A DNA stretch of 48,426 bases, filler included, from Circinaria calcarea (Eukaryota): the NCBI GenBank assembly GCA_051942165.1. It is 2 parts of 2 records of this genome, joined end to end, with 100 filler letters (N's around TTAATTAATTAA, not from the genome) between each part and the next. Parts side by side here need not be neighbours in the genome. Positions count along the whole stretch, not along the records: positions 1 to 24,166 come from JAVECS010000110.1; 1 more part is not named here. One strand, 5' to 3'. Position numbers and translations under genes: made by a program. Positions 1 through 18,690 of the stretch are shown piece after piece; the first letter of the stretch is position 1, and each line of letters opens with the position of its first letter. The notes beneath the pieces are model-generated. The model did no database searches and was not told where the DNA came from. It was given only the letters and a program-made list of their open reading frames with translations.

Positions 1-1463
1 GCAAGAGGATTGAAGGCTTCCGATGGGAAAACAATTGCTGACCCGTGCGTTGCGGTGGCCATATACCCGAGAATGCATCCAAAGCAGTGAAATAATGGTG
101 GAGGGCAGCAAACAACGTCACGCTCTGTAAGAAGCATGCGATCGCCAATGCTCTTACCGTTGTTGAGTATAGAACGATGTGTGAGACATGCTGCTTTGGG
201 CTGAGACGTGGTACCGCTCGTAAGTTGAATATTAACGACTGCGAAGACATGAGCAACTAAGATCAAAATCTATTCTCAAAATTATCTTACCATCACCAGG
301 GTTGAGATTCGTTTTTGGAATGCAACCGCCATGGATTCCGTCCTCCTGCACATCGTTGTAATGTAAGATGGATCTAAAGGGTGACAGGTCTACCCGGCCA
401 TCGGAATTATCTACAACGATAATCTCTCTGAGGGAGGGCACAGCAGCTGACTGAGGGACATGTCGATTAGGGCGAGAGGTCAATCCACTTAGGAGCAAAT
501 GATTCGATCGGGGTTCTTTCCATGGTAAATTAGTCTCGGCTCCAATGATGAGATGAGACACTTCGAGATGATTCAAGGCAGCGTGGAATTGCGTGGCGTT
601 AAATGCAGGATTCAAAGGGACCTATTAGTATTCAGCACAGGTTGCTGTGTACTATCTCAGTGCGTCTTCGGGCGGTGATCATATTTGGTATTTGGACCTG
701 GTTCAAATGCGAGTTCATGTAGCCGTGGTCGATTTCCACAGACGACAAACGTTGTAGAACACAATTGGGGATAGCCAAAGACACCATTCGATTGTTGGAC
801 AGCTGAGGAAAACCACCTACGAGGATAGCTCCCAGTTTAAAAAGTGCATACGTAGCCTGAAAACTCATTAGTCATTACTTCAAGGCTTCCCCGTTTGATA
901 TCGTACAATAGCATACTCGATATTGTTCCCCAACGAGATAGCCACTCGGTCGCCCTTCTTCACACCAATGTTGATCAATCCACGGCCTAGAGATTCGGCC
1001 TTTTGGTTCAGTTCAGAGTAGGTAAGGCGGGTAGCCTGATGTCGGGATATGACACTGCGGGATTGTCAGGTATATTGGTATCAAACGGCCACACAGTATT
1101 CCAGGCATTTCCCTCAAGGAACAGTGAGTGTTCTTGACATCCTCCAATATCTTGTTTGGATAGGTGGAAGCCCGTACAATCATTCCATTCACAGACAACG
1201 CTGTCAAATTCTTATGCCCAGTACGAGTACGCCACAAGAAAACACTTACGCCAGTTTGTCCGGAATTTGGGAGACGATGGAGGAAAAGTGCTCTCCCACG
1301 GTTTGCTCAAGTAATGGTGGCTTTCCATATCAATTCGGCATACCTGAAGCCCTCGACGGGATCATACCTGGGAGGGTCCTCCATAAAAGGACTTTGTCAA
1401 AAGGCTCCGGTACCTGACTTGGCCGTATATGCTAGTAACCGTTCGTAACCCAATTCGCCGCAT
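1..1463 (-). CDS. AMP-binding acyl-CoA synthetase (ACSF2-like), 5' part; runs off window start
   Basis: Hand-spliced: ATG at 1463 (MRRIGLRTVTSIYGQVRYRS, basic and mitochondrial-presequence-like), ...GVKKGDRVAISLGNNIEY, ...VPLNPAFN, then AMP-binding motif VNIQLTSGTTSQPKAACLTH and CCPPPLFHCFG; at least 5 GT-AG introns. Confidence 0.92.
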
Positions 1464-2120
1464 CTCGACCACATATTCGAGATTCCCAAGGATATATATA
1501 CATTACAGTAACCGGGCGTATGCAAAGTCGGTCACATAGTACAGCAGCACGTGGTTGATGTTGTGCAAGCATCGAATCCGTCGAATGTATCAGGGAGTAT
1601 CGCGTCAACCTGCGGGGGAGGCGGATTCGCTTAACAATGCACGGACCATATTACACATTCAAAGTCACTCTGTACGGGGCCTTTGCTTTTGTGGTAGAGT
1701 ATTTCTAGGTGACAACGCATTCAACTAACTACCGAGTGCATAATGATAGTGTAAAGTCTTATTAGGAAGACAGAGGTAAGTACGGTAGTAGCATGTGCTG
1801 TCAGGCTCACGTTTCTTACCTCACTCATTACCTCTACGAAATGCTGAAAATAAGGGTAGTATTCGCTCGATATAATCAATAGGGGTGAATAACTCGAACG
1901 GCTACCCATAAAATTCTCTGTTTGAAGTACATCTATTAGCCAAGTCTTCGCTACGTAAGGAACTTTTGCCTTTCCGTTGGGTGGCAAGGAATGAGTTAGG
2001 GGAAATTGAGAAGAATATACCAATCGGCCCTTACTCTATCTACTCACGCCGTACCGGAATCTTTGGGAGGGGATAATTCCTCTGAAACTACTTAGCTACA
2101 AAAAGCCTGACCGCTGAAAT

Positions 2121-3337
2121 ATGGCCAACGGAGATATTGTTGTCTTTAATGTGGCTGCCTTCATCTGCGCACTGTTTGTGTTGGAATTTGGGGCCGACAA
2201 GTTTATCGATCATACAGTTATCGTCGCTCGGAGGACGGGAGTATCACAGGCACTCATTGGTCTTCTGACCGCGGGTGCTGAATGGGAAGAGGTTAGGGAG
2301 CTGGGTGTTGATGGCTGCTACATCGGAGCTGACTGTTCCTACAGCTCGTGGTTATCATAGCCTCTATTGCGCGTAGTCGCTCATCCCTTGCGCTTGGGAA
2401 TGTTATTGGCTCCGCAATATCCAACATCCTAGGCGCGTTCTCGCTGGGACTCCTATTCTATCCGCACGAGGGCGAAATCAAGTTTGACAGAAGTTCAAAA
2501 CTCTACTCTTTACTTTTACTCTTGTTGGCAGCTTTCGTTACTGTCATTACTTTCTTCGGGAAAAAGGGCACCTGGAGTTTTCTTGGTGGGCTTCTGCTTG
2601 TCCTGTTCGTTGTTTACGTTATATCGGTAGCATGGGCAATTACCCGTGGAATTTTCACTCCGCCGGAGCTTTCCGACTCTGACGACGATGATGACACTCA
2701 AGAGAGCCATAGTGACAGCGAAGAGGGGAATAGTTTCTACGATGGGATAGGAACATCAAGACACGCATCTCAAGATGTTGAGGTTGCATCACCACTGCTC
2801 AAGACGAATAGTATTCCAGATGCTTCATCTGATCCTCAAAGGACGCATCCTCGCCTATGCCGGCTTCCACACCACAGGCTGATATATCATGTGGCCTTCC
2901 TGTCTCTTGGACTTGTATCAATCTGTCTCTCTGGCTACGTTCTCTCTCACGCTTCTACCACCATTAGTGATGAGCTTGGTATATCCGACGTTCTTTTTGG
3001 TATTGTGATACTCTCGATCGCAACCACTCTGCCGGAGAAGTTTATAGCCGTCATCAGTGGCGTTCGCGGTCATGCTGGAATTCTGGTTGCGAATACGGTA
3101 GGGAGCAACATCTTTCTGCTAGCGTTGTGTATGGGGATTGTGTTGGTGTTTACGGCAGGAGATTTCGATGCAGGCTCGGTGAATGCTGCCGAATTAGGGG
3201 TCCTGATGGGTTCCACGGTAGCTGTAACAGCTACGGTCTGGTTTGGCGGTAGCTGGAGTCGGTGGATAGGGGGTGTCATGCTTGCGGCTTACGTTGTCTT
3301 CCTCGTATTGGAATTCACCCTCATTCGAAAGGCTTGA
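2121..3337 (+). CDS. Sodium/calcium exchanger (CaCA, Na_Ca_ex) family membrane protein
   Basis: Exons 2121-2291 and 2345-3337 join in frame; two hydrophobic halves separated by an acidic loop; alpha-repeat-like LTAGAEWEEL...GNVIGSAISN and SIATTLPEK...ANTVGSNIF. Confidence 0.88.
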
Positions 3338-4663
3338 AAATACTCACGAGCGAGTCAAGTTATCTGCAACAATATCCTCACAATAATCGCGTCATGTATC
3401 GATATGCCAGAGACGGAGAATGGCTGCTAAGTACCGTGAATGCATTAGGTCCTGGAGATAGGATACAGATTATGTAAAAGAGAATAAAGCTGTAATGTAA
3501 CTGATAAACTATATATGATTCCAAACAAAGCCAAAGACTGTGTTCACTAGAGACCAAATCACCCTTACAGCGTATGTCTATCGTTTGATCATTTTCTTTT
3601 ATTTACAGAAGTACTTCGTGAAATTATCATAGCTTCAGCTTGAGGTTCTCAGAGTCTCTCAAATATGCAACGCGAGCACATGCCCCAGTTCTCTGAGCAA
3701 CATTAATTGGTTCGTTATTAATCCAGCATGCTTTAAAGATTTGCATTTCCAGCTCGGCACGCCTGAGGCAGGTCCCACTCGCGAATCTGGTGGCGACCGA
3801 TAGCGATTACTTGGGCCGAGCACGCGATCCCCTAAACGCGCATGGGATCGGTGAGGTTTTATCAACTCGGATGAATACGAGGACGGGCCACACCGGTCAA
3901 TCTTGCTTGGCACCGATAGGACGAGACGCCGTCACCGACTTTGAGAGGCGGACAGCGGGAGCCGCTTGCGGCTTTGCTATGATAGCGCAACGGATATAAT
4001 GCTTAATTTGACTGGTGATTGTCGAGACGAGCTGGTAATTGCCGGCCTAAGATGAGAATCGGGCTACAATAATAAAGCAATACTTATCAACTTTGCTGTT
4101 TGGTTCATTTCTTATAAATGCTTACTGCTCTGTGCCGATTTCGTATATATGATGACAACATTTTGGAAAGTAGACCCCCTCGGTCTCTTCTTGTACTTAT
4201 CAGTGTTATCACATTCAAACGCGCTACCATAAGTAATCAATCAAATCAGCATGCAAAGGCGACCAGTACGCTAGCTTATGGTACCGAGGTCCACAGGAAT
4301 CAAAGCCGATTATCTGCATCACCCCAGGATCCACTATCTGCGTTCCTCCGAGACTTATTCGGAGAGCACAGCTTTGGGAGTAGCCCTGATCGACCTGCGA
4401 GCCATTGAATCGTCTGAAGCTCGATCAGAATGATGGAATACCCCGTCCGGGTTAGCAGCTTCTATGGAGAGAATACGGATGCCCTCCGAAGCCATGGGGA
4501 TCATTCGTTAGCACCTGCTGCATTAAGCAGTACTGGTAAATCATGGAGGGGGGGCAAATTAGCAGCGGAGAGAAGGAGTATAATATGGAATGCATGACCC
4601 TCGCATCATGCCGACTTCTCGCGGAATAACCTTCCTCATATACTTGATAAACGCAAACTGAGA

Positions 4664-6678
4664 ATGCCGTCCAATATCGACGATGCGGCCGCCGGGGCGA
4701 AACACGATATCGCCTTGACTCAAGGTCCTGACGAGCAACATCGTGGTTCCGCAGCTGCTCACGCGACCGAGCTTCCTCCCGTCCTCGAAGGAAAGGGGAC
4801 CTTGTCTTCTCTGTATGAGACCGAAAGTGATGATTTCCCTACCACCGAAGAGCTTCATACTTTGCGCCGCGTCTCGGATAAGATCCCGTGGAGCGCCTAC
4901 ACTGTTGCCTTTGTTGAACTTATCGAGCGTTTCTCGTACTATGGAACCCAGGTCGTTTGTATGTTCTCTACCTAACTTGGGTTCTATGTGTATATATGAT
5001 CTTAAAACTGATTGTCTTATCTAGACACCAATTTCATTCAACAGCCACTCCCAGATGGATCGAGAACTGGTGCCGGCGGGCCCCACGGTCAGTCCGGAGC
5101 GCTTGGCAAGGGCCAGAGGGCATCCACCGGACTTGGCACATTCAACCAGTTCTGGGTCTACTTTATTCCTCTCCTCGGTGCCTACGTTGCAGATACCTAT
5201 CTAGGGAGATACAGAGCCATTTGCATCTCCCTAGGCATCGCCATCGTTGGACACATAATCCTCACCGTCTCCGCTGTTCCCTCCGTGCTAGCAAATAGCA
5301 GTGGAGCCCTAGCCTGTTTCATCATCGGTCTCATTGTGATGGGTGTGGGAACCGGTGGTTTCAAGCCAAACATCTCACCGCTTGTGGCAGAGCAGCTACC
5401 ACTCACCAAGATGAAGGTGGTTAACACCAAGACTGGAGAGCGCGTTCTGGTTGACCCGGCTGTCACCTCTTCCAGGGCATACCATTATTTTTACCTCTTC
5501 ATTAACATTGGTGCCTTGGTGGGCCAGATCAGCATGGTTTACTCCGAGAAGTTTGTCGGTTTCTGGCTGTCTTTCTTCCTCCCTACCGTCCTGCTACTCA
5601 TATGCCCGTTAATCATGTGGGCTTGCCGCAACAAATACGTGACGTCACCTCCCCAAGGGAGTGTCTTATCTAAAGCGTTCCGGCTGTTCCTTCGCGGAAA
5701 TTCAGGGCGATGGTCTATCAACCCTGTCCGTACCTATAAAAAATTGAATGACGGTACCTTTTGGGAAAACGTCAAGCCAAGCCACATTCCAATCAGCCAG
5801 AGACCGAAGTGGATGACTTTTGATGATCAATGGGTCGATGAGGTCCGAAGAGGATTTCATGCCTGCAGTGTTTTCCTGTGGTACCCGCTTTACTGGCTCA
5901 CCTACAACCAGTTGAATAACAACTTGACATCTCAAGCTGCCACCATGAAGCTTAACGGCCTTCCCAACGATATCTTGTCCAATCTTGATCCGTTCGCGTT
6001 GATCATCCTCATTCCTATTTGCGATCTCGTAGTCTACCCTCTACTCCGAAAATGGAAGATTAACTTCTCGCCCATCAAGAAGATTACCTGGGGATTCTAC
6101 ACCGGTAGTGCAGCGATGATCTGGGCTTGTGTCATCCAAGTTTACATGTAACTACTCTCTGCCCCCAGCCTAGTCCGTACCCTCAAACTAATAAATATAC
6201 CAGTTACCGACAGAGCGTCTGTGGAAAGTATGCTGCAGGTGAAGACCCAGCGACCGGCGATACATGCGCGCCAGTCGAGCTCAACGTCTGGGCCCAAACT
6301 GGTTCATATGTTCTCATCGCAATCTCCGAAATCCTCGCATCCATCACTTTGCTCGAATACGCGTTCTCCAAAGCGCCCAGGAACATGCGTTCCCTCGTCC
6401 TCGCTTTCGGCCTCTTCATGAATGCCATCTCCGCCGCTATTGGCGAGGCCTTCGTCTCCCTCTCCGCCGACCCTCTGCTGGAATGGAATTACGGCGTCAT
6501 GGCGGTGTTGTCATTCGTTGGAGGAACTTGCTTCTGGTTTCAGTTCAGAGGGTTGGATAAGCAGGAGGACGAACTCAATATGCTGCCTACGGGACATTTG
6601 GGCACTTCTGAGGATCTCAAGGATCCGGAGCGATCTCTTAGCCATGTCATTCATGATGCCAAGGAGTTGAAGACCTAG
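4664..6678 (+). CDS. PTR2: POT/PTR family di-/tripeptide transporter
   Basis: Exons 4664-4958, 5025-6147, 6204-6678; motifs ELIERFSYYG (ExxERFxYYG), GTGGFKPN, YFYLFINIGAL, LEYAFSKAPRNMRS. Confidence 0.95.
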
Positions 6679-7220
6679 GGTGCTATTCACTTAGGGATTT
6701 GGGTCTTGGGATGATCGAGGGTGTCTATATAGTGATTGCAAGCACTGCTAGTTCTTTGATAAGAACTTGGCATTAGCTGAAATGAAAAGGTTTTTTATGA
6801 TGATACTATCTTCTAGACCTTAGAAGTTAATGGTGTATCTGTATGGATAAACAGCGTTGCTGTTCCCCTTACCTGAAATGCTCGTTCGCTCCACTTCGGC
6901 CCGGGCCAGAAGTCTTGGCAAGAGGATCCAAAGCAATCAGCAGGGTGGAGTTAGTTGTCAGCCTCCACGACCATTCATCGTAACTGCCGCACTGCTAAAC
7001 TGAGATGCGCTCTATAACTCTCTGCTGATTTGAGCTTACCCATTGTTGTATCATGCATGGATTGCTATAGTTCAGATTAAATATACAATACATTACCGAA
7101 AAGCTGTCGAGAGCAAGGCTGAAATGATTACCTAGGCGGATTTGCGGAATCTAGGCTATTTTTCACATTCAGCTAGAGATTTGTGTCCGTATGAATCTTG
7201 GATAGGCGCCTACCATCAGA

Positions 7221-9434
7221 ATGACGACCCTCGTCGCTGCATGGCAGAAGGGGTTGGATCCCACATCTTTCTCTGATAACCGCCTTGGGCTTGCTGGAAC
7301 TCTTTTTGAAAGCTGCGTCCGACTGTTTGTTGACCTGATCAGAGGTCCGGCGAAGCAAGCTCTTGAGCCACATACGTTTCAGTACCTGCGGTTACAAGCT
7401 CAAAGGTTCAACCTATGGGGTGATGGGTTCTCAGCCAGCCAAGGTGAGCTGGATCGCATTTTGGCAGATTCTGACCATCTAAGAAAGCCTGTTCTGTCCT
7501 TCCTGAGCGCTTTGGGAAATACTCTGGTGGAATTGGCGAAAAAGTTAGACACCGATGGTGTATCAAATGATGCCAGTTCGTCGGCATTACGAGAAAGCTG
7601 CAGACAAATTGAAATCCTGAACGATCAAGTGGCAAAAGTCATAGGTGAACCCGTAGACGCCGATGGCGATGAAATCAGTTCTTCGGGGTCGGAGTTGTCC
7701 TCTTTTGACGAGTTAAACGAGCTTGTTGAGGATATCAAGACGTATGTCGACTGCTTCATGGATCTGGTCTCCACACTGGAGAATCCGGCCAAAAACTCTG
7801 GACCGGAAGAGAAACCTGGAGATATCTTAGTTGATCTTGATGTTGTTGCTACTGCTGCGCGACCTTATATCGAAAGCATTTCTTACCAATATCCTTCGGC
7901 TGACCAGGAATTTGCCAAGAGGTTAGGCGAAGCAAACTGGCAACGGAGGGAAAGGCTCAGAGAAAGGCTAGAGTTGGCGGTCCTAGCAGTCGAAGAAAAT
8001 GATGGTAATATGACAAGGGACGATAAGGAAGAAGAACTGCAAGCTAGAAGTTTCGCCCAAGCTTCGTCTGTTCCTATACAGTCGGAGACCACAATATCTA
8101 GCTTTATCGAGTCATCCATGTGGGAGGTCGATTCTAATGTAATACTGGGGCGCGCCAATGATACCAGAACGATTCCTAAACCCTCGATGTCTATCACTTC
8201 CTTTGCATCGAGCTTTATGGACGGTGATACTGCTATAACTGCACGCCGCATGCCAATACTACCAGATAGTCACGAATGGGGTTCTGCCTTTCACTGTTTC
8301 ATCTGTGGAGACTTTTTACAAGATATCATCAGTCATGCAGATTGGAAGTACGTCTCAGATATTTATTGACCTTGACGTTTAGCAGCTAATTCTAGGGGTA
8401 GGAAACACGTGTTCAGTGATTTAGAGCCTTATATATGCTCTTTCTCGGAATGTGTTAGAGGAATAAACACCTTCATGACGCGAAGAGAATGGATGGATCA
8501 TGAATTTGCTCAGCATCGAGTGAACCATCATTGGTCCTGCCCTCAGTGCTCAATCTCCTCTTATAGTCCTGAAGGCTTCAAGAAGCATCTCAATCAGGAA
8601 CATCTTAATTACTTCACGCCATCGCAGATGGATGCTATCGCAAATGCAGCAATTAGGACATGCGCGCAGCCAGTCATAGAACAGATATGTCCCTTTTGTT
8701 TAATCACCCCTGGAGATACGGCACGCAAATTTGCTGCGCATGTAGGGAGACATATGCAGGAAACTGCACTTAGCGCTCTTCCTCCATTCATAGGTTCGGA
8801 TGTCAACTGTGAATCACTCGAAGAGGAAGATCACGATGAAATAGACGAAAAGAATACACCACAAGAAGACTTAAGACCTTCGTCGACGCTCCCGCTGGAG
8901 CAAGTAGCATTTGGCAAAGGTCTTGGTCCAAAACCAGCACAAAATCAGGAATTAGATTCGAGGGTCGCAGCTACAGAGAAAATTCCGATGGAAGCTCCTA
9001 CTAAGCTTGCTATATTCATTATGGAGATGGAAAGCCTCGCGGGTACACTTCAAGGGTTAAGAGAAAAGTACTCCAATGAAGCGCACAACATCGCCCTTGT
9101 TACAGACCTTTTATGGGCAGCGAGATCAGTCCTTAGATCTATCGACGAGTGGTGGGAAAATAACGACTCATCACAGATATCTAATCAATGGGAAGTTGAT
9201 ATGGATTACTCTGTAGAAGCTTGGGCCGTCTTGGTTGCAGCTATTAAAAAGAAGTCGGAAGTAACTAGTGGTAAGGAACAACCCCATTTGGTTACATCTC
9301 AAATGTTTAAGAAACGACGCTTTCGATTATTCGATGGTGATCTTAAAAATTATATAAGAGATTTGGACGTCCAATTACATGCTCTAAAGTCCCTTTTACG
9401 CACATGTCAATTCAGATCTGTAAATGAGGAATAA
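7221..9434 (+). CDS. Hypothetical protein: N-terminal helical domain, C2H2-type Zn fingers, C-terminal helical (HeLo-like/STAND N-terminal-like) module
   Basis: Exons 7221-8347 and 8402-9434 in frame; RFNLWGDGF...LDRIL; FHCFICG...WKKHVFSDLEPYICSFSEC...WMDHEFAQH...WSCPQC...CPFC...HVGRHMQETAL. Confidence 0.8.
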
Positions 9435-10285: not shown

Positions 10286-12323
10286 TTAACATATCACCGC
10301 CGACTGAACACACAGATCCAGCTCCTTGACCACATCCTGGAAGACAGCACCTTGCAACTCTATATTCTCCAGTTTATAGTCCTCGCCTATTCCGAAGTCG
10401 CAATTCAAACACCTCTGAACGACTCTCCCGTACCTCCGCCCTAGTTTATTCGATACTGCCGCCCCAAGTCTCTTCGCGGTCCAGAACTCCGTGAGTTGGT
10501 TTACCGGTTCATCCGCAATATCCTCTAGGAGCTGCAGATCCTGCAGCGGTGCATCGAAGCCTAATTCGATAAGCATGATGCCGAGACTGTACAGAATGCT
10601 GTTTGGTGCGAGAGATCGCGTGATCGAACGAGCAATCTGAGTCTCAGAGGATGTCTGCTGAGGTACTATAGCTGCAGGGTTTGCTTTAACGAACCGGGCG
10701 TTGAGATATGGGGCACACAACGGATCTGAAGTGAGGTCTCGGATGCCGAAGAAAAAAACGTCACGACTTCGCCAGGAGTCTTGGAGCCATGGGGTAGAAT
10801 GAAACTGGAGCACACCTAGAGCCAGGAGCTTTGCGAGACGGAGCTTCTCAGGAAGGGGGATACCAAGCTGTGAAGATTTGGCGAACGTGAGAGCATCGTT
10901 CAGCGAGATGGCGGCGATACCCGAGGAAGCATTTTGATGAGAGAGGTCGCAAGGATAGATAAAGTGTTTGCACGTTGTTGTTTTTTGCAAGAAGCCTATG
11001 CACGGCAGAGGTGAGGATATAACCAAGTTTTGGAAACGCTCTTGAAGGTAGAGGCATGGGTCTTTTTGGATGGAGCAAAGATTCAAGGGCGAGCATAAAG
11101 TGTTAGAAGAGTGGTTTGGAAGCGGAGAGGTTGGTATGGCAAAGCGTACACTTTTGCCCTTGGTAAGGGTGTTTTGTAGAGTTGCGTTGAGGGTACGTAT
11201 AGGTAGTGAGACATTCGAGGGACTTGTTTCGGCAGTTGATTGTTCAGCTAGGGATTCAACGGTAAGCCACAACGGCTTCTCTGTAATGCCAATTGTCCCC
11301 TGAGCGTTTCCAATGTACGTCAATGCCATGTTAAAACGGACGTTCTCGATCTGTCGACGATCTTCGACGTGCAAACAGATACTCGCCAAGTGCTCAGCAT
11401 GCACTTTGCAAGCCCACAAGCTTGAAAAGGCATCGTAGAGTTTTTCTGAGACTTTCCGAACGGTTTCGAACTTGAGGATAGGTCCCTTGGCGGCTGGCGG
11501 TGCGGAACGAGTTGAACTCTCGTCCTTGAGACGCTTGATTTGTTTTACTAATACGCGGAGGTCGCCATTATGTTTCCGAAGATCATCGACTTTATCTTCG
11601 AGACGGGGCTTGGAGAAGCTAAGTTTAAGCTTCTGGTGGACCAGGTGAAGGCGGCTTTTGCCGGACTCTTCCTGAAGGGTAGGTTAGTTGAAAGGCATAA
11701 GCGAATTGTGGTCGTGTATATATGCCTCTTCTTGGAGTCCTAACAGATATAACAGGGGTATAACGTGCACGCATATAGATCTATGATTTGAAAGATGGAC
11801 CCTTTCATATATCATAGACTTGCTACATGTTCGATAGTTACGCCGAACCTGAAGATATAATGACGAAAGGACTAAAGTTCATAGACGACACTCTTCAAAC
11901 AGATAATGTATAGAAAAGTGATACACTGGGTACCTTCGTCTTCAACAGATCGTCAAAACCCCCCGTCTCCTTAAGAATAGCAACCAAACTCTCATTGACC
12001 AACTCCAGCGTCGAAACGCAAGTATTAAACGATTCATCCAGCCGCTCAGCTAACCTCCGATCCAACTCCTCATCCCGCCACAGCTCACTCGTCCGATCAT
12101 TGAGCATCTCATCCTCGTGAGTCGTGACCGTAGACAGTAAGAGCCGGCACTCATTCTCAAAAGCCGTTTTCTGGATCCTGAGAAGGTTTTGGAAGCGCTT
12201 GGCCTCCTTGCGATGCCGGTGAAAGGTCACAATGGGCCGGAACGTGTATTCGTAGTTTTCGATTACGGCGATTATGAGGGGAAGGATGGCGAGGGTGAGG
12301 CTGGTGGCTGTCGCCGGGTCCAT
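10286..12323 (-). CDS. Hypothetical protein: HeLo-like N-terminal helical domain plus C-terminal kinase-like-fold (DUF7580-type) domain
   Basis: Exons 12323-11934 (130 codons) and 11671-10286 (462 codons) in phase 0; hydrophobic N-terminus MDPATATSLTLAILPLIIAVIENY; C-terminal KLRLAKLLALGVLQFHSTPWL...LYSLGIMLIELGF...YGRVVQRCLNCDF. Confidence 0.82.
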
Positions 12324-12690
12324 TGTAGGCGGGCCGGAGGCATGGAGGGGTTCTTGGTGGTGTTACGGAATGATACTGGATTAGCAACGGTGAATGACTC
12401 CCAACTCTTCAAGTGGTCTATCTAGTAGGACAACATCATTATCGCAGGCGTAGTAGCGCTGGTTTAAAGTTGCCAGTCTGCTAAGAGGCTGACCGGATTC
12501 CCTCATCTTGCATCAACAGCCTCATTTGGTAGCCTTCCACTTGGGGGAGAACATGCATAACCACACACCTCCCCTCATAATAGACTATGGCCTCCAAAGA
12601 AGGCCACGAGTTTGCCAGCTTCACAGAATCGGTTGAACGACCTTACCAGTGTTCTACATCTGATCGAGAGATAGCTGACGTACCTGTACA

Positions 12691-15600
12691 ATGGCGCTGG
12701 CGTTGGCCAATGCAGCAAGGCCGAAGCCTGAAGTCTCTCTCACACAAGCTTTACATGAATACAACGCCATCCTTACCGACGAGCAGAAAAGGCTGCTACA
12801 ATCGCATCATGGACATCCGGACGCTTCTGCTGTGATCACGTTGACGGTCGACATCGACCGAAAAAACAGTGGTCGTAGGAGTCGATGCGTTGGGACTAGG
12901 TTGATCACCTTTCTCGAGTCTGTCCAGCAGTTTACGACTATCGTGGATACTTTCGCTAGCTCAAATCCTGATATTGCAGCTCTGGTATGGGGTGGAGTGA
13001 AGCTGGCTCTGCTGGTAATCTCCCTTCCCTCCCAGGCTGTCCCTATGGCTGACTTGACTTATTAGGCTGCCAATAACTTCACTTCCTTCTTTGACAAATT
13101 GTCGACACTCTTCATGAACATAGGTTCTACCTGCCCTCGATTTACCCAATTTGGGTTACTTTATCCAAGTTCTATTGGCCTTCAAAGAGCATTGTGTGAT
13201 TACTATGCCATTATTATACAACTTTGTAAAAGGTCAATAGAGTTTTCAAGAAAGCCAGGTGAGTGTAGATTGATGATAGAACACCGGAGTATCGATCTTA
13301 ACATAGTAAAGGTCTTTCTCAATTTGCTACGACCTTCTTGAGTCCTTTCGAAGCCCAATTCGGCAAGTTCATAAAGGATCTAGAGAGTTTTGGCCAAGTG
13401 GTACGAGATGAAATATCACTGGCATCAAAGCAAGTGCAGCGTGAGGAAGCAAGGCTTCAAGTCATTGAGCGGGGAGAAGCCTCCATGTTCAGGAGTCTAG
13501 GGACAAAGTTCAGAGACAGAGCATCCCAAGAGCGGAAAGAAGCCCGAGAATGGAGGCTGCAAGCAGAGCTGCGAAATAAGCGTAATTTGATATTTCCTCG
13601 TTTCGAATCGTGGAGGGTTTCCTGACTTGGTGGTGCAGGGCATAAGAAAATAAAGATACTAAATGCTTTTTCAACGTACAATCACTTGACAGCTTGGATA
13701 AAAGCTCGAAAGAAGTGCTCGGTAGGAACGTCGACCTGGATAACCGCCAGACCCGAATTCGAAACGTGGACATCTAGCCTTGGCTCATCAAGCTTGTGGT
13801 GCACTGGAACATGTAAGTCACAGCACAAGCATACAGTATGGGGATATGCACCTAAACTATCTCATTAGTGGGAGCAGGAAAGACAGTGTTATCGTAAGTA
13901 AGAATAGTTTCATGCCACATCGGACCATGGTACTCATTCGACTTAAGGGCTGAAGTTGCTGCACATCTTACGAACACAGTATCACCCATGGATTCTGTCG
14001 GATTTTTCTTTTGCAGATACGATGAGACCGATTCTATGCGCGCGAGAACTATCATGGGTAGCATTGCCAGACAGCTCTTGCACAGCCTTCCGTTGGAGTC
14101 TTTCACCAAGCTCGATCAAAATAGTTATGCGGTATCCCTTGACACGGATCAGATTGTCGATTCTCTTCAGAAAGTCCTGCCCGATAACAGGCGATATTTT
14201 GTGATAATTGATGGGTTGGACGAATGTGAAGATGCGGAAGCCAAAAAGTTGATTTTAGCAACACAAAAGTTACTAACCTCGCCAAAGATTACCTTCAAAC
14301 TCTTTTGCTCTAGCCGACCCGATGTATTTCGCTGGGTACCCTCCTTACTAAAGCCGGAATGGCACGTATCTATGGCTATAGGAGATGTCAATCCCGATAT
14401 CGAGCGTTATATCGACGCTACTCTCGCACAACGTATAGAAAGTGGAGATCTCCAACTAGGGAATCCAACTCTCATCTTGACTATTCGGGATACCCTTCTT
14501 AACGGTGCTCAAGGGATGTATGTAATTCCCCGATGGAACTGGAGCCTTCTATACCCTGCTTACTTTGATTAGGTTCCTTTGGGTTGCTTTCCAGATTGAA
14601 ACTTTATGTGCTCAAAGAAGCGATCAGGGCCTTCTTGAGACGCTCTACGCTCTTCCCAAAGACTTGCCAGAGACGTTTAACCGCATTCTCGGCAGACTTG
14701 CCAAGATGGAAGACATAGACAGAAATAATAGTCTCGAAATCTTCAAATGGGTGGCTGCTGCGAAGCGTCCGTTAACCTTGGCGGAGCTTCGTGAGGTTAT
14801 CAGTATCAAACCATGTCAACAAGTGTTCACAATGGAGTGTTTAATCAACGACATGTCAAGAGCAATGGTGTGCTGCGGAAGTCTCGTCGAAATCGACGAA
14901 GAGTATTCCACTGTCCACTTTGCTCACCATAGCGTCAAGCAATATCTGCTCTCGGTTACTACAGATTCTTTACTTGCAAGATATCATTTCAGCTTACAGG
15001 AAGCCGACAGAGGAGCAGGAGAGATATGCGTAACTTATCTCAGCTTCCCTGAGTTGACCACGCAAGTGGCGAGGGCTCCAACTTCGCGAGCGCATGTCCA
15101 AATATACCCATCCACTATTCTTAAGGAGAGTTTACCCCAGACGGACTTGACTTCCCGGCTTGCCCTAAAGCTGTTGAAAAATAAACGTAATACCGATTAT
15201 TCCTTTCATCGTCACTTAGAAGAGTCTATTGGAATTGCAGAAGTCGAGCACCCTCAACACGCCCAACGCCAGTTTGCTTTCCTAGGTTACGCTCAAACTT
15301 ATTGGCTTTCCCATACGAAAGCATTTACAGAGCATACCACAACATGGCAACTGTGGATTGATCTAGTTAGGAAAGACCTCTCAACTGCATACAGTCCGTG
15401 GACGAATTGGAAATCAGGTAGTTACGGCAAATACGGCATGGAGGAGATTGTTCGGGAGGACCACTGTGCACTCCTGCTACTGAGAATAAGTCAATCCTAT
15501 CCCTCACGGAAGTTCATTTTTAAAGATGGACATCCAGTTGGGACCCTCGAACTGACTCAGGTGGACGAAGTAAGCATGTTCTACAAGATGATCGACCAGA

Positions 15601-16334
15601 TGATTTTGGAGAAACGATATGGGCTCCTTCGCATACTGCTGTTTAACTCACATCCTCAAACAGGCCCTCTGCTCACCTCCTCACTATGCAATGATATTAA
15701 CGCGGCCCTAGCCGGCCTTGGTAACCTAGAGCTTCTTGAGGAGCAACAAGCTGGGATAGAGAAACTAGGTTTAGCTATGGTGTATCTGAACGATTTACTT
15801 GGATACAGTATAGCTCGCCTCCTTAACGAAACACTCATTCCAGAATTTCCAGGCTCAAATGGATTAAAAATCTTTGGCCCGCCGGCATATCATCGCTGGA
15901 ACGCTTTGGCCGTGGCAGCAGCTCTGGGGCATGTCCCTGTTGTAAGGTTCATATTTGCCGTGAACAGAGACAGTGGTGATTTGGGGTCCTGCACTCCGTC
16001 TTTCAATGACATTTTCGCCCAGGCAGTTATTCGCAACCAGGTTCAAGTTTTGCATGTCCTGTTAGATCAGGGTGGTCGATACTTGGAACTGGACAAGCGG
16101 GACTTGAGAGGCTTCACACCACTCATGTATATCGCTGTGCTAGGCAATGTGGATTTGGCTAGAAGACTCATCAGCATGGGAGCTGGACTAGATATAAAGA
16201 ACTTTGATGGAGAGACGGCTTTAAGCAAAGCAAGGGATGAAAACATGAAAAAGTTTCTGATTACCGCTGCGAAGATGACTACACAAAATACCATAACCTC
16301 CGAATTGAATCCACCCACTACCAAAGAGGCTTGA
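12691..16334 (+). CDS. Fungal NLR-like STAND protein: N-terminal helical (Goodbye/DUF7708-like) domain, NACHT NTPase, winged helix, C-terminal ankyrin repeats
   Basis: Multi-exon; Walker A GTLGAGKT assembled via 25-nt microexon 13869-13893; Walker B FVIIDGLDEC; GAQGMFLWVAFQI, LPKDLPETFNRIL; ankyrin-like NALAVAAALGH, GFTPLMYIAVLGN, GETALSKA. Confidence 0.92.
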
Positions 16335-17226: not shown

Positions 17227-18690
17227 TAATAAGGTGGTATATGGGGCGAAAGTAATAGTAACTTATGCCTTATTAACCTAGTTGCCCCCCGCCGGGCCCC
17301 CGGTGCCGTGCTACTAGCTAACAGCGATTGAGAGGTCATTTCATAGTTATATAAGCTCCGTGGTGAATACTACAAAAGCTGATAAGCCACAACACGCGTT
17401 TACGAAATCACACACACACACGGGGCACTTTCCTATGGGTACCTTATTCCCCGCCCTCCTTTTTTTCAACTCCAAACGTACGCCCTCCTCGGGGTGACCC
17501 CGGGGGAAGTAGCGGCCTACCATCCGTTTCACGGAACGAAACCCTAGGCTAGGCTAGGGGGCGGGGGCTCTCCAATACCCGGGGACCTGTTTACCCCCAA
17601 ACCCAAACCCAACCTAACGCCTTCCTCGTATCTTATTGTCATTATCATTATCAAATCCCTCTCCTCTTCTTCTCTTCTTCTCGTAGCAAGAACAGGAACA
17701 GAAAACTCCCAACCCCCCTCCCCTCCATCCCGTCAATTCCCTGATCCCTGGCTTCTCCAAAAGTATTAAAACCCCCAAAAGATTCCATTCAAAATATATG
17801 TTGAGCAATATATAGTGTCCTGTATTGCCATGCGAATTATATAACTAACTATGATATCGAAGCTAGGCATACGAAGAAAAAAACCCGTCTTTTAGAGAGG
17901 TGTGGGAGCATTGGACCACCGCATTATGGTACCCGTAGGTAACAACGTGACTCCGCAAGCCCTATGTATGGACTTTTTCACATAAAACTCCCGTCACCAA
18001 ATAGTAATTCGTGGATAGCGGTTTTTTATATTCATTCTCCTGTCCTGCTCCCTTGATTCCATTTCTACTCCATTCCCCTCCTCCACAAAAAGGAAAGAAA
18101 AAAGGGGAAATTAAACCAACTCCGCCCGTATACCATGTACCATATACCATATACCATAGCCTTGACTTCGACTTCGACTTCCGTCCGTCTATCCATCCAT
18201 CCATCCATCCGTCCATCCATCCGTCCATCCATCCATCCATTGGGAAAATAATCCCATCGGTTTCCTATTTTCTTTTATTTTCTTTTCCTTTTCTTTTTCT
18301 TTCGATTACAAGACGAGATACGAGATACGAGATTAATTGGCAAGGGTTGAAGGTCGAACGAAAGGGATGTTGGGAAAGGACAAGGGTACAAGGGCACAAG
18401 GAAGGGGGAGGGGTTGGGTTACACGGGTCACATGTGTGTGTGTTTGACGAGGTTATTATAGGATTACTAATATATACATGAAAAGGGGGTTTTTCTTTTG
18501 GCTCGTAGTGGTAGTTTAGAAGTGGAAGTTTAGATAGACATGGAAGATTATAAACATGCCACAATAATTGTAGCATGTTGCTTAACCAAAACCGAGGCTA
18601 GATGGCTATTTTTTTAAGAGAGATACGGGGTCCTTTTTGGAATTACTGCTGACATATGCAATCATACCTTCATGTTTCCACAATAAACAG
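17227..18690 (+). ncRNA. Candidate long structured non-coding RNA (telomerase-RNA-like dimensions; identity unproven)
   Basis: No credible CDS; nested long-range helices (17341-17370 with 17822-17854; 17431-17456 with 17559-17585; 17899-17908 with 17988-17998) that need G-U pairs and so favour the plus strand. Confidence 0.3.
18130..18333. repeat. Microsatellite cluster: (ATACCAT)n, (GACTTC)3, (TCCA/TCCG)n, pyrimidine tract, (CGAGATA)3
   Basis: Read directly, e.g. atccatccatccatccatccgtccatccatccgtccatcc at ~18191-18240. Confidence 0.9.

What the first reader, a model, noticed from the sequence alone, without database searches (positions are those of the whole stretch)
10286..16334. Head-to-head NLR and HeLo-like/kinase-fold gene: candidate sensor-executioner pair
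Seen: a NACHT-ankyrin gene and a two-domain gene diverge from only 367 bp (12324-12690). The partner starts with a HET-S-like hydrophobic helix and ends in a kinase-C-lobe-like domain; no HRD or DFG motif is visible in it. Known: fungal NLRs often sit beside their cell-death effectors (NWD2/HET-S), and HeLo domains are related to the MLKL four-helix bundle. Inference: this could be an NLR plus MLKL-like (helical killer domain plus pseudokinase) module. Neither protein shows an obvious Q/N/G amyloid motif, so any signalling would not follow the known amyloid route.
Basis: partly seen in the sequence, partly recalled or inferred. Interest (0 to 1): 0.72.

Follow-up and report, generated by a model that had tools for sequence, protein, structure and literature searches.

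The report
MLKL-shaped fungal gene beside an NLR
A lichen-fungus gene for an MLKL-shaped protein (helical bundle plus dead kinase) sits head-to-head with an ordinary immune-receptor-like NLR gene, but in other fungi its constant neighbour is a different zinc-finger gene, which here lies on its other side.

Summary
Both genes are real, intact and diverge from a 367-bp spacer. The NLR (7 exons, 1105 aa) is a common "all-in-one" type: Goodbye-like (DUF7708) N-domain, NACHT with canonical Walker A and B, winged helix, ankyrin repeats. The partner (591 aa, 2 exons, Pfam DUF7580) models as a hydrophobic first helix, a long four-helix bundle and a kinase fold with no conserved catalytic motif. That is MLKL-like in architecture, although the bundle match is not specific.

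No NACHT was found in 80 related loci, and no nucleotide-binding domain among 192 flanking ORFs of 32 representative loci. In Trapelia, the one named species with both genes, they lie on different contigs. The two proteins share no motif.

Instead, 27 of 31 testable locus groups carry a homolog of window gene 7221-9434 head-to-head with the DUF7580 gene. This "gene X" has a weakly HeLo-like N-domain and C2H2 zinc fingers. In this window X is adjacent but convergent, and the NLR occupies X's usual place.

The best reading is a fungal MLKL-like gene whose conserved partner is X, with the NLR adjacency lineage-specific and probably incidental. No function was tested.

The parts
10286..11671 (-). 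Partner (DUF7580) gene, exon 2 with stop codon; encodes residues 131-591
   Evidence: ORF and splice acceptor. Product equals P0001. Pfam DUF7580 E 1.4e-23 over residues 199-583.
11672..11933 (-). Partner gene intron, 262 nt, GT..AG, CTAAC branch site
   Evidence: Read from the sequence. The spliced product matches the database protein P0001.
11934..12323 (-). Partner gene exon 1; encodes residues 1-130 (hydrophobic first helix and most of the helical bundle)
   Evidence: phmmer with this exon finds 705 relatives at E<=0.001. Every hit of 495 aa or more among the 150 listed, 17 in all, carries DUF7580 (16, P0003).
12261..12311 (-). Codons for residues 5-21, the most hydrophobic stretch of the protein; consensus A-G-L-x-L-A-V-L-P-L-x-I-S-A
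   Evidence: Kyte-Doolittle mean 2.25, the highest in the protein. P15 is present in 28 of 30 homologs.
11510..12287 (-). Four-helix-bundle region, residues 13-184 (helices 13-33, 38-63, 85-132, 137-184); the range includes the intron
10289..11467 (-). Kinase-fold domain without catalytic motifs (pseudokinase-like), residues 199-591
12324..12690 (.). 367-bp spacer between the two divergent start codons
12691..13581 (+). NLR exons 1-3 (12691-13014, 13066-13258, 13312-13581): Goodbye-like / DUF7708 N-terminal domain
   Evidence: DUF7708 half-hits on exon 1 (E 0.0022) and exon 2 (E 0.0032). Collinear homologs hit DUF7708 at E 1e-13, and Goodbye at up to 25.0 bits against a cut-off of 24.8.
13639..14517 (+). 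NLR exons 4-6 (13639-13812, 13869-13893, 13948-14517): NACHT-type NTPase (Pfam NPHP3_N)
   Evidence: NPHP3_N E 2.3e-16. Walker A GAGKT and Walker B D-G-L-D-E-C stand in register with homologs.
13869..13893 (+). 25-nt micro-exon carrying the Walker A motif
   Evidence: Splice sites GTAAGT / AG on both sides. Alignment to seven homologs.
14573..16334 (+). NLR exon 7: winged helix, helical region and ankyrin repeats (Pfam hits at about 16020-16262), with stop codon
   Evidence: GPIID_WHD E 4.6e-6 and Ank_2 E 5e-9. Identical to P0295.
7221..9434 (+). Gene X, 721 aa (exons 7221-8347 and 8396-9434, 48-nt intron): short N-domain with an R-F-x-L-W-G motif, a middle region, C2H2-type zinc fingers. This is the conserved neighbour of DUF7580 genes elsewhere; here it is convergent, 851 bp stop to stop
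   Evidence: Gene model. Homologs lie head-to-head with the DUF7580 homolog in 27 of 31 testable locus groups. Weak HeLo hit E 0.0027. Atlas clusters carry zf-C2H2_AcuF in 14-18% of members.

Best explanation
The window holds three adjacent genes: gene X (plus strand), the DUF7580 gene (minus strand) and an NLR (plus strand).

The DUF7580 protein has an MLKL-like build. It has a hydrophobic first helix, a four-helix bundle extended by two long helices, and a kinase-fold domain that has lost every catalytic motif.

Inferred mechanism, by analogy with MLKL and the plant MLKLs: the dead kinase domain holds the bundle inactive until a signal releases it to oligomerise and act on a membrane.

Its evolutionarily conserved partner is gene X, not the NLR. 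In most relatives X shares a divergent promoter with the DUF7580 gene, so X is the likelier regulator or co-factor.

The NLR is an ordinary all-in-one Goodbye-like/NACHT/ankyrin receptor that signals through its own N-domain. Its head-to-head position here results from a lineage-specific rearrangement and is most likely incidental.

Shown: gene models, domains, folds, loss of catalytic motifs, and the linkage pattern. Inferred: membrane or death activity, autoinhibition, and any role of X.
For: Gene models and identity to database proteins.

Domains and folds:
- DUF7580 E 1.4e-23.
- AF2 model with mean pLDDT 79.2.
- The atlas's best cluster for residues 1-190 is a HeLo cluster, score 0.95.
- Homolog P0166 hits Pfam HeLo at E 8.5e-5.
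- Columns at the HRD and DFG positions are not conserved, while the alpha-E, APE-like A-P-N and alpha-F columns are.

NLR not linked:
- A custom NACHT HMM finds only the window among 80 loci.
- 0 NACHT or NB-ARC among 192 flank ORFs.
- In Trapelia the two homologs carry locus tags 94 apart, on contigs of different length.
- hhalign of the partner family against the NLR family gives probability 0.1.
- The NLR has its own Goodbye-like domain. That domain class shares the MLKL four-helix core according to PMC9815663 (passages).

X is linked:
- 27 locus groups positive, 4 negative, 12 untestable, out of 43.
- No X homolog in any other position in the loci.
- The DUF7580 proteins of the positive groups have a median pairwise identity of 31%.

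Against: Pfam HeLo is matched by only 1 of 30 family members, and that hit is just under the cut-off. No member matches a Pfam kinase family.

The loci tested for linkage are 26-44% identical relatives from metagenomes, not close orthologs from lichen fungi. A young, lineage-specific NLR coupling therefore cannot be excluded.

The NACHT HMM was built from one NACHT subtype. ORFs under 190 aa or further than 7 kb from the match were not sent to Pfam.

In this window X and the DUF7580 gene are convergent and no longer share a promoter. If co-regulation with X matters, it is broken here, and the promoter is now shared with the NLR.

No expression, interaction or activity data exist.
Confidence: 0.55

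Rival explanations
1. One reading: the NLR senses a signal and the DUF7580 protein is its dedicated executioner. The two would be co-expressed from the shared 367-bp promoter and coupled by a non-amyloid route. One possible form is binding of the pseudokinase by the ankyrin sensor, as plant ZAR1 binds pseudokinases. Another is a contact between the two helical N-domains.
For: Both genes are intact and head-to-head, 367 bp apart. Both begin with helical N-domains of the wider MLKL/HeLo/Goodbye class. Here the NLR sits exactly where the conserved partner X sits in other fungi, so a promoter is shared.
Against: No linkage was found in relatives: 0 of 80 loci by NACHT HMM and 0 nucleotide-binding domains among 192 flank ORFs of 32 loci. 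The genes are not adjacent in Trapelia. No shared motif or profile similarity exists. The NLR has its own effector domain, so it fits the all-in-one type. The NLR evolves fast, with a best outside homolog 43% identical over the full length and 35% over exon 7. A 78% paralog lies on another contig.
Confidence: 0.12
2. The DUF7580 protein is not a death effector. It would be a scaffolding or regulatory pseudokinase with a coiled-coil-like helical N-domain, working with the zinc-finger protein X in some housekeeping or regulatory process. In that case the MLKL resemblance is only architectural.
Against: A strongly hydrophobic, conserved extreme N-terminal helix is the hallmark of HET-S/HELLP-type domains. 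The feature-based search puts a HeLo cluster first. Both domains align in the same order with MLKL and AtMLKL3. X's own N-domain also weakly resembles HeLo. One paper lists X's zinc-finger family among the most divergent families of the Neurospora pangenome, alongside HET and ankyrin (PMC13412767, one passage).
Confidence: 0.25
3. The adjacency is an assembly artefact of a metagenome-assembled genome.
For: The window's X / DUF7580 orientation is unique among 28 loci. The source is named as a MAG.
Against: The partner and the NLR C-part are both recorded on a contig of the same length, 24,166 bp, with consecutive locus tags 001146 and 001148. All three genes are intact with clean splice sites. 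The composition profile shows no break across 7-17 kb.
Confidence: 0.05

Closest known systems
MLKL (vertebrates) and plant MLKLs (AtMLKL1-3; PDB 4btf, 6ka4)
   Same: The domain order is the same: N-terminal four-helix bundle, connecting helices, then a catalytically dead kinase fold. AtMLKL3 is Foldseek rank 2 for the whole model. Mouse MLKL aligns over both domains, and AtMLKL3 over the N-domain.
   Different: No sequence-level match to Pfam HeLo or kinase families for the window protein. The N-lobe is atypical, with a disordered insert of about 45-60 residues (276-321). The family also has invariant or near-invariant Cys/His residues (C218, H224, C336, C551, C554) and two very long bundle helices. 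No upstream RIPK-like kinase was seen nearby. Activity is untested.
HET-S / NWD2 and HELLP / PNT1 (fungal NLR with an adjacent HeLo or HeLo-like effector, amyloid templating)
   Same: An NLR gene lies next to a gene whose product starts with a hydrophobic helix and a helical bundle.
   Different: Those NLRs carry a short N-terminal amyloid motif matched by the effector's C-terminus, and the gene pair is conserved. Here the NLR has a full Goodbye-like domain and the partner ends in a kinase fold. No shared motif exists and the adjacency is not conserved.
All-in-one fungal NLRs: Goodbye-like / NACHT / ankyrin (Dyrka 2014, search listing only; Wojciechowski 2022, PMC9815663, passages)
   Same: The window NLR has exactly this architecture.
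   Different: Nothing notable apart from the 25-nt Walker A micro-exon and the split public annotation.
Earlier scan note e1-7825512: fungal HeLo-pseudokinase head-to-head with a kinase-ankyrin gene
   Same: It also describes an MLKL-shaped fungal protein with a conserved head-to-head neighbour.
   Different: The neighbour here is a zinc-finger gene with a weakly HeLo-like start. No Pkinase hit appeared among the 192 flank ORFs. The sequence look-up found no look-alike stretch, so it is probably a different family.

Membership tests
Pfam DUF7580 (PF24476) | Profile match above the gathering score | tested here: met
   84.5 bits against a cut-off of 27, residues 199-583. 30 of 30 aligned homologs match.
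MLKL-like proteins (four-helix bundle + pseudokinase) | C-terminal protein-kinase fold | tested here: met
MLKL-like proteins (four-helix bundle + pseudokinase) | Catalytic motifs lost (glycine loop, VAIK lysine, HRD, DFG) | tested here: met
   The family alignment shows no conserved residue at the HRD-equivalent columns 427-429 and no DFG after the beta-7/8 strands, while the A-P-N and alpha-F columns are conserved. The mapping of columns to kinase motifs is by secondary structure and my own reading, not by a residue-level structural alignment.
MLKL-like proteins (four-helix bundle + pseudokinase) | N-terminal four-helix bundle homologous to the MLKL / HeLo executioner domain | tested here: inconclusive
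MLKL-like proteins (four-helix bundle + pseudokinase) | Membrane permeabilisation or cell death on release of the N-domain | not testable with these tools
   Needs expression and liposome assays.
Pfam HeLo (PF14479) | Profile match above the gathering score (23.2 bits) | tested here: not met
   The window protein has no hit at E<=1. 1 of 30 homologs hits, at 22.9 bits, E 8.5e-5. A feature-based look-alike search puts a HeLo cluster first at 0.95, which is only a lead.
Fungal NLR (STAND NTPase with repeat sensor) | NACHT-type nucleotide-binding domain with Walker A and B | tested here: met
   NPHP3_N E 2.3e-16. G-A-G-K-T and D-G-L-D-E-C are aligned with homologs.
Fungal NLR (STAND NTPase with repeat sensor) | C-terminal repeat domain and N-terminal effector domain | tested here: met
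   Ank_2 E 5e-9. DUF7708 half-hits on exons 1 and 2 fall below the cut-off singly. Collinear homologs hit DUF7708 at 1e-13 and Goodbye at up to 25.0 bits.
NLR / amyloid-templated effector gene pairs (NWD2/HET-S type) | Short motif shared by the NLR N-terminus and the effector C-terminus | tested here: not met
   hhalign of the two family profiles gives probability 0.1, E 0.53. The NLR starts with a folded domain of about 260 aa. The partner ends with the last helix of the kinase fold.
NLR / amyloid-templated effector gene pairs (NWD2/HET-S type) | Adjacency conserved across species | tested here: not met
   0 of 80 loci by NACHT HMM. 0 NACHT or NB-ARC among 192 flank ORFs of 32 loci. Trapelia homologs lie on different contigs. 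Close lichen orthologs could not be examined.

The most novel reading that the evidence does not exclude
DUF7580 proteins would be the Pezizomycotina counterpart of MLKL: a latent membrane-attacking helical bundle held in check by a dead kinase. Together with the head-to-head gene X (HeLo-like start plus C2H2 zinc fingers, sometimes with ankyrin or TPR sensor repeats) they would form an ancient two-gene regulated-death module.

In this lichen fungus a rearrangement has uncoupled the executioner gene from X. It now shares a promoter with an all-in-one NLR, which could be a natural rewiring of a death effector to a new sensor.
Probability: 0.22. Interest if true: 0.75.

Novelty: new variant of a known kind. 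Interest (0 to 1): 0.5.

Why it matters
A 2025 review of fungal regulated cell death notes that plants have bona fide MLKL homologs. It calls for a broader exploration of HeLo/four-helix-bundle proteins in fungi (PMC12881547, passages). Another paper states that MLKL homologs exist in fungi and names one from Basidiobolus (PMC11476962, passages).

The DUF7580 family is widespread in ascomycetes: 705 relatives of its N-domain in a library clustered at 50% identity. It has the MLKL layout but escapes both the HeLo and the kinase profiles. No paper in the library names it.

Its deeply conserved divergent pairing with gene X gives a concrete two-gene system to test. If the N-domain proves membrane-active, fungi would have a necroptosis-type executioner with a genetically linked partner. 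If not, the family is a conserved pseudokinase of unknown role.

The NLR next to it adds little by itself.

Tried and rejected
Negative or uninformative searches:
- Sequence profiles against PDB sequences gave mainly coiled-coil chance hits (coronavirus spike HR1) for A1 and A3. A3 also gave very weak IRAK4 kinase hits at E 0.17-0.6. The gene X N-domain profile gave nothing.
- HET-s HeLo did not appear among the listed rows of any fold search. This is reported only as an absence from those lists.
- hhalign of X N-domain against partner N-domain (probability 0.6, E 0.09) and against the NLR (probability 0.1) showed no relation.
- The three repeat-protein neighbours first suspected of being NLRs showed no nucleotide-binding domain at E<=0.1. 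They were L002 (ankyrin), L042 (zinc finger plus ankyrin) and L066 (TPR_10). L042 and L066 turned out to be gene X relatives.
- A paper search for HeLo with C2H2 found nothing relevant.

Tools or data not available:
- No whole genome is held for the window. Paralog neighbourhoods, including the NLR paralog Q9187_001421, could therefore not be examined.
- The search for related loci with the broad alignment A1 found no conserved stretch. It was repeated with the closer alignment A2.
- Complex prediction (ankyrin region of the NLR with the partner) was not available and nothing was folded.
- Sequencing runs: none was listed and no RNA holder was listed.
- Earlier-findings look-ups by place and by sequence returned nothing.
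Full report
**What is in the sequence**

The window is fungal, with spliced genes and short GT..AG introns.

The minus-strand gene runs from 12323 to 10286 and has one 262-nt intron (11933-11672). Its 591-aa product is identical to database protein P0001. The source names P0001 as a hypothetical protein of a Circinaria calcarea metagenome-assembled genome, Q9187_001146.

The plus-strand gene starts at 12691, 367 bp from the other start codon, and ends at 16334.
- I read seven exons with six introns of 51-57 nt. The fifth exon is a 25-nt micro-exon.
- The 1105-aa product has no internal stop. It aligns end to end with full-length NLRs of other lichen fungi, at 42.7% identity to P0082 over residues 1-1073.
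- The micro-exon supplies the Walker A motif in perfect register with seven homologs.
- The public annotation covers only residues 365-1105 (P0295, Q9187_001148).

A DFG tripeptide exists at residues 555-557, but it lies behind the last C-lobe helices and not at the kinase DFG position.

**The NLR**

Pfam gives the following:
- NPHP3_N, a NACHT-type P-loop, at E 2.3e-16.
- A GPI-inositol-deacylase-type winged helix.
- Ankyrin repeats.
- Two sub-threshold halves of DUF7708 on exons 1 and 2.

In collinear homologs DUF7708 scores E 1e-13. The same region also matches the Goodbye domain, reaching 25.0 bits against a cut-off of 24.8 in P0308.

Goodbye-like/NACHT/ankyrin is one of the standard all-in-one fungal NLR architectures. 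Goodbye-like domains are reported to share the four-helix core of MLKL and HeLo (PMC9815663, passages; PMC12881547, passages).

This NLR therefore brings its own putative effector domain. It has a 78% identical paralog on another contig of the same MAG (P0296).

**The partner: kinase-fold domain**

Residues 199-583 match Pfam DUF7580 at E 1.4e-23. Nothing in Pfam matches residues 1-195.

An AlphaFold2 model built on 30 full-length homologs has a mean pLDDT of 79.2. It shows:
- a short disordered tip;
- helices 13-33, 38-63, 85-132 and 137-184;
- a linking helix 192-215;
- a beta-rich lobe, a disordered insert (276-321), and a helical lobe.

The fold searches agree on a kinase fold.
- Foldseek against the PDB gave no hit at E<=0.001. 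Its rows are nevertheless protein kinases, with the AtMLKL3 tetramer chain at rank 2.

In the family alignment some structural positions are conserved: the alpha-E helix, an A-P-N in place of APE, and the alpha-F L-G-x-x-L-x-E-L. The columns that should hold HRD and DFG are variable, and no glycine loop is present.

"Kinase fold without catalytic motifs" is therefore well supported for a predicted model. No family member matches a Pfam kinase profile.

**The partner: N-terminal domain**

Residues 5-21 are the most hydrophobic 17-residue stretch of the protein, and the stretch is conserved.

In the wide structural search the N-domain (about 9-181) matches:

I also folded a naturally N-domain-only homolog, P0185. 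It is 193 aa, about 31% identical and collinear with residues 1-193, and its model has a pLDDT of 88.8.
- Foldseek found nothing below E 0.05.

The sequence-level hints are weak:
- The language-model look-alike search puts a HeLo cluster first, at score 0.95.
- One homolog of 30 hits Pfam HeLo, at 22.9 bits against a cut-off of 23.2.

The N-domain is faithful to one architecture. phmmer with exon 1 found 705 relatives. Every hit of 495 aa or more among the 150 listed, 17 in all, carries DUF7580 (16, P0003). None of the 150 is longer than 658 aa, so none is NLR-sized.

**Is the NLR its partner?**

I fetched 80 metagenome loci that encode relatives of the partner (26-44% identity), with up to 10 kb on each side. 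I collapsed them into 43 groups by DNA identity.
- A NACHT profile built from 45 NLR homologs was run over all six-frame ORFs of at least 60 aa. It found the three window exons and nothing in any locus.
- I then sent every ORF of at least 190 aa within 7 kb of the match to Pfam, for 32 representative loci. The other 11 groups had almost no flank. That made 192 ORFs. A further 192 ORFs of 130-189 aa were not sent. No NACHT or NB-ARC was found.
- Three repeat-protein neighbours (L002, L042, L066) showed no nucleotide-binding domain at relaxed thresholds either.
- Trapelia coarctata is the only named species with homologs in both lists. There the two genes carry locus tags 94 apart, on contigs of different length.
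- The two family profiles share nothing: hhalign probability 0.1.

Close orthologs from lichen fungi could not be inspected.

**What the partner is linked to instead**

I compared the window's other neighbour, an unannotated gene at 7221-9434 on the plus strand, with the loci. I call it gene X. It is 721 aa, with a 48-nt intron at 8348-8395.

The comparison gave an unexpected result.
- Homologs of X lie directly upstream of the DUF7580 homolog on the opposite strand in 27 of the 43 groups.
- 4 groups are negative (one of them, L077, has only 1.2 kb upstream of a partial match) and 12 have under 1 kb of upstream sequence.
- The homologs are collinear in three parts: N-domain, middle region and zinc-finger region.
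- Gaps to the DUF7580 match are mostly 100-900 bp.
- No X homolog occurs in any other position in the loci.

The DUF7580 proteins of the 27 positive groups have a median pairwise identity of 31%. Six pairs exceed 70% identity, which leaves about 22 distinct lineages. The pair is therefore old.

What X looks like:
- A short N-domain with a conserved R-F-x-L-W-G-x-G-F ... L-D motif. In the window protein it gives a weak Pfam HeLo hit at E 0.0027 and 18 bits. The other eight N-domain ORFs scanned gave none.
- C2H2-type zinc fingers.
- Look-alike clusters in which 14-18% of members carry zf-C2H2_AcuF.
- In L042 the X relative ends in ankyrin repeats. In L066 an X-type N-domain is followed by TPR_10 repeats.

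One paper lists this zinc-finger family among the most divergent families of the Neurospora crassa pangenome, next to HET and ankyrin families (PMC13412767, one passage).

**The arrangement in this window**

Here X and the DUF7580 gene are adjacent but convergent, 851 bp from stop to stop. The NLR stands where X stands elsewhere.

This order is unique among the 28 loci that hold both genes. It cannot arise by one simple inversion of the pair. A tandem duplication followed by losses, or a transposition, would produce it. I could not test this.

**How it most likely works**

Shown:
- the three gene models;
- the domain and fold assignments above;
- the loss of catalytic motifs;
- the absence of NLR linkage in relatives;
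- the conserved X linkage.

Inferred:
- By analogy with MLKL and the plant MLKLs, the kinase-fold domain keeps the bundle inactive until a signal frees the hydrophobic first helix for oligomerisation and membrane attack.
- X is the functional partner, because it is co-transcribed from a shared promoter in most fungi.
- The NLR signals through its own Goodbye-like domain.

I give this reading 0.55. I give 0.12 to a young, lineage-specific NLR coupling. I give 0.25 to the view that the family is a non-lethal scaffolding pseudokinase. I give 0.05 to an assembly artefact.

**Novelty**

The NLR is of a known kind. HeLo-type effectors, MLKL in animals and MLKLs in plants are all known. One paper states that MLKL homologs exist in fungi and names a Basidiobolus protein (PMC11476962, passages).

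I found no paper that names DUF7580, PF24476 or DUF7708. In the passages I read, I found no description of an ascomycete four-helix-bundle/pseudokinase family paired with a zinc-finger gene (searches; passages). Supplements were not read.

This scan has noted a similar idea on other DNA: a HeLo-pseudokinase next to a kinase-ankyrin gene (e1-7825512). That appears to be a different pair. No kinase neighbour was seen here, and the sequence look-up found no look-alike.

I rate the finding as a new variant of a known kind, with interest 0.5. The claim as made, an NLR-executioner pair, is not supported. The MLKL-shaped family and its real conserved partner are worth an experiment.

Noticed in passing
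window 7221-9434 (+); loci L001-L078 upstream flanks: Gene X (weakly HeLo-like N-domain plus C2H2 zinc fingers) is the conserved head-to-head neighbour of DUF7580 genes. 27 of 43 locus groups are positive, 4 negative and 12 untestable. In this window it is convergent instead.
   Followed up: yes
window 10289-11467 (-), protein residues 218, 224, 336, 551, 554: C218, H224 and C336 are invariant in 30 of 30 DUF7580 homologs, and C551 and C554 are present in 27 of 30 (C-x-x-C-D-F-G). This pattern suggests a structural metal site that ordinary kinases lack. Distances in the model could not be read.
   Followed up: no
window 13869-13893 (+): A 25-nt micro-exon encodes the NLR's Walker A motif. The public annotation misses it and starts the protein at residue 365, leaving the N-terminal part outside that record.
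   Followed up: yes
P0296 (Q9187_001421), another contig of the same MAG: An NLR paralog 78% identical over 732 residues. Whether a DUF7580 or X paralog lies beside it could not be checked.
   Followed up: no
L066:1-2503 (-) and L042:5341-9315 (-): Gene X relatives that end in TPR_10 repeats (L066) or ankyrin repeats (L042). These are NLR-style sensor repeats with no nucleotide-binding domain visible.
   Followed up: partly
alignment A3 against PDB sequences: The family profile gives very weak sequence hits (E 0.17-0.6) to the C-lobe of IRAK4, a TKL-group kinase. These agree with the fold result but are not significant alone.
   Followed up: no
window 18180-18240: A TCCA tetranucleotide array of 15 copies. 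It reads as M-D-G-W repeats in a minus-strand ORF and is probably non-coding.
   Followed up: no
window 1-7000 and 24000-48426: The surrounding genes are housekeeping-type: Na/Ca exchanger, POT peptide transporter, NSUN2-like RNA methyltransferase, JmjC/cupin, WD40, ubiquitin-conjugating enzyme and an OBG GTPase. No further NLR, HET or HeLo gene was seen among the 26 large ORFs scanned.
   Followed up: partly
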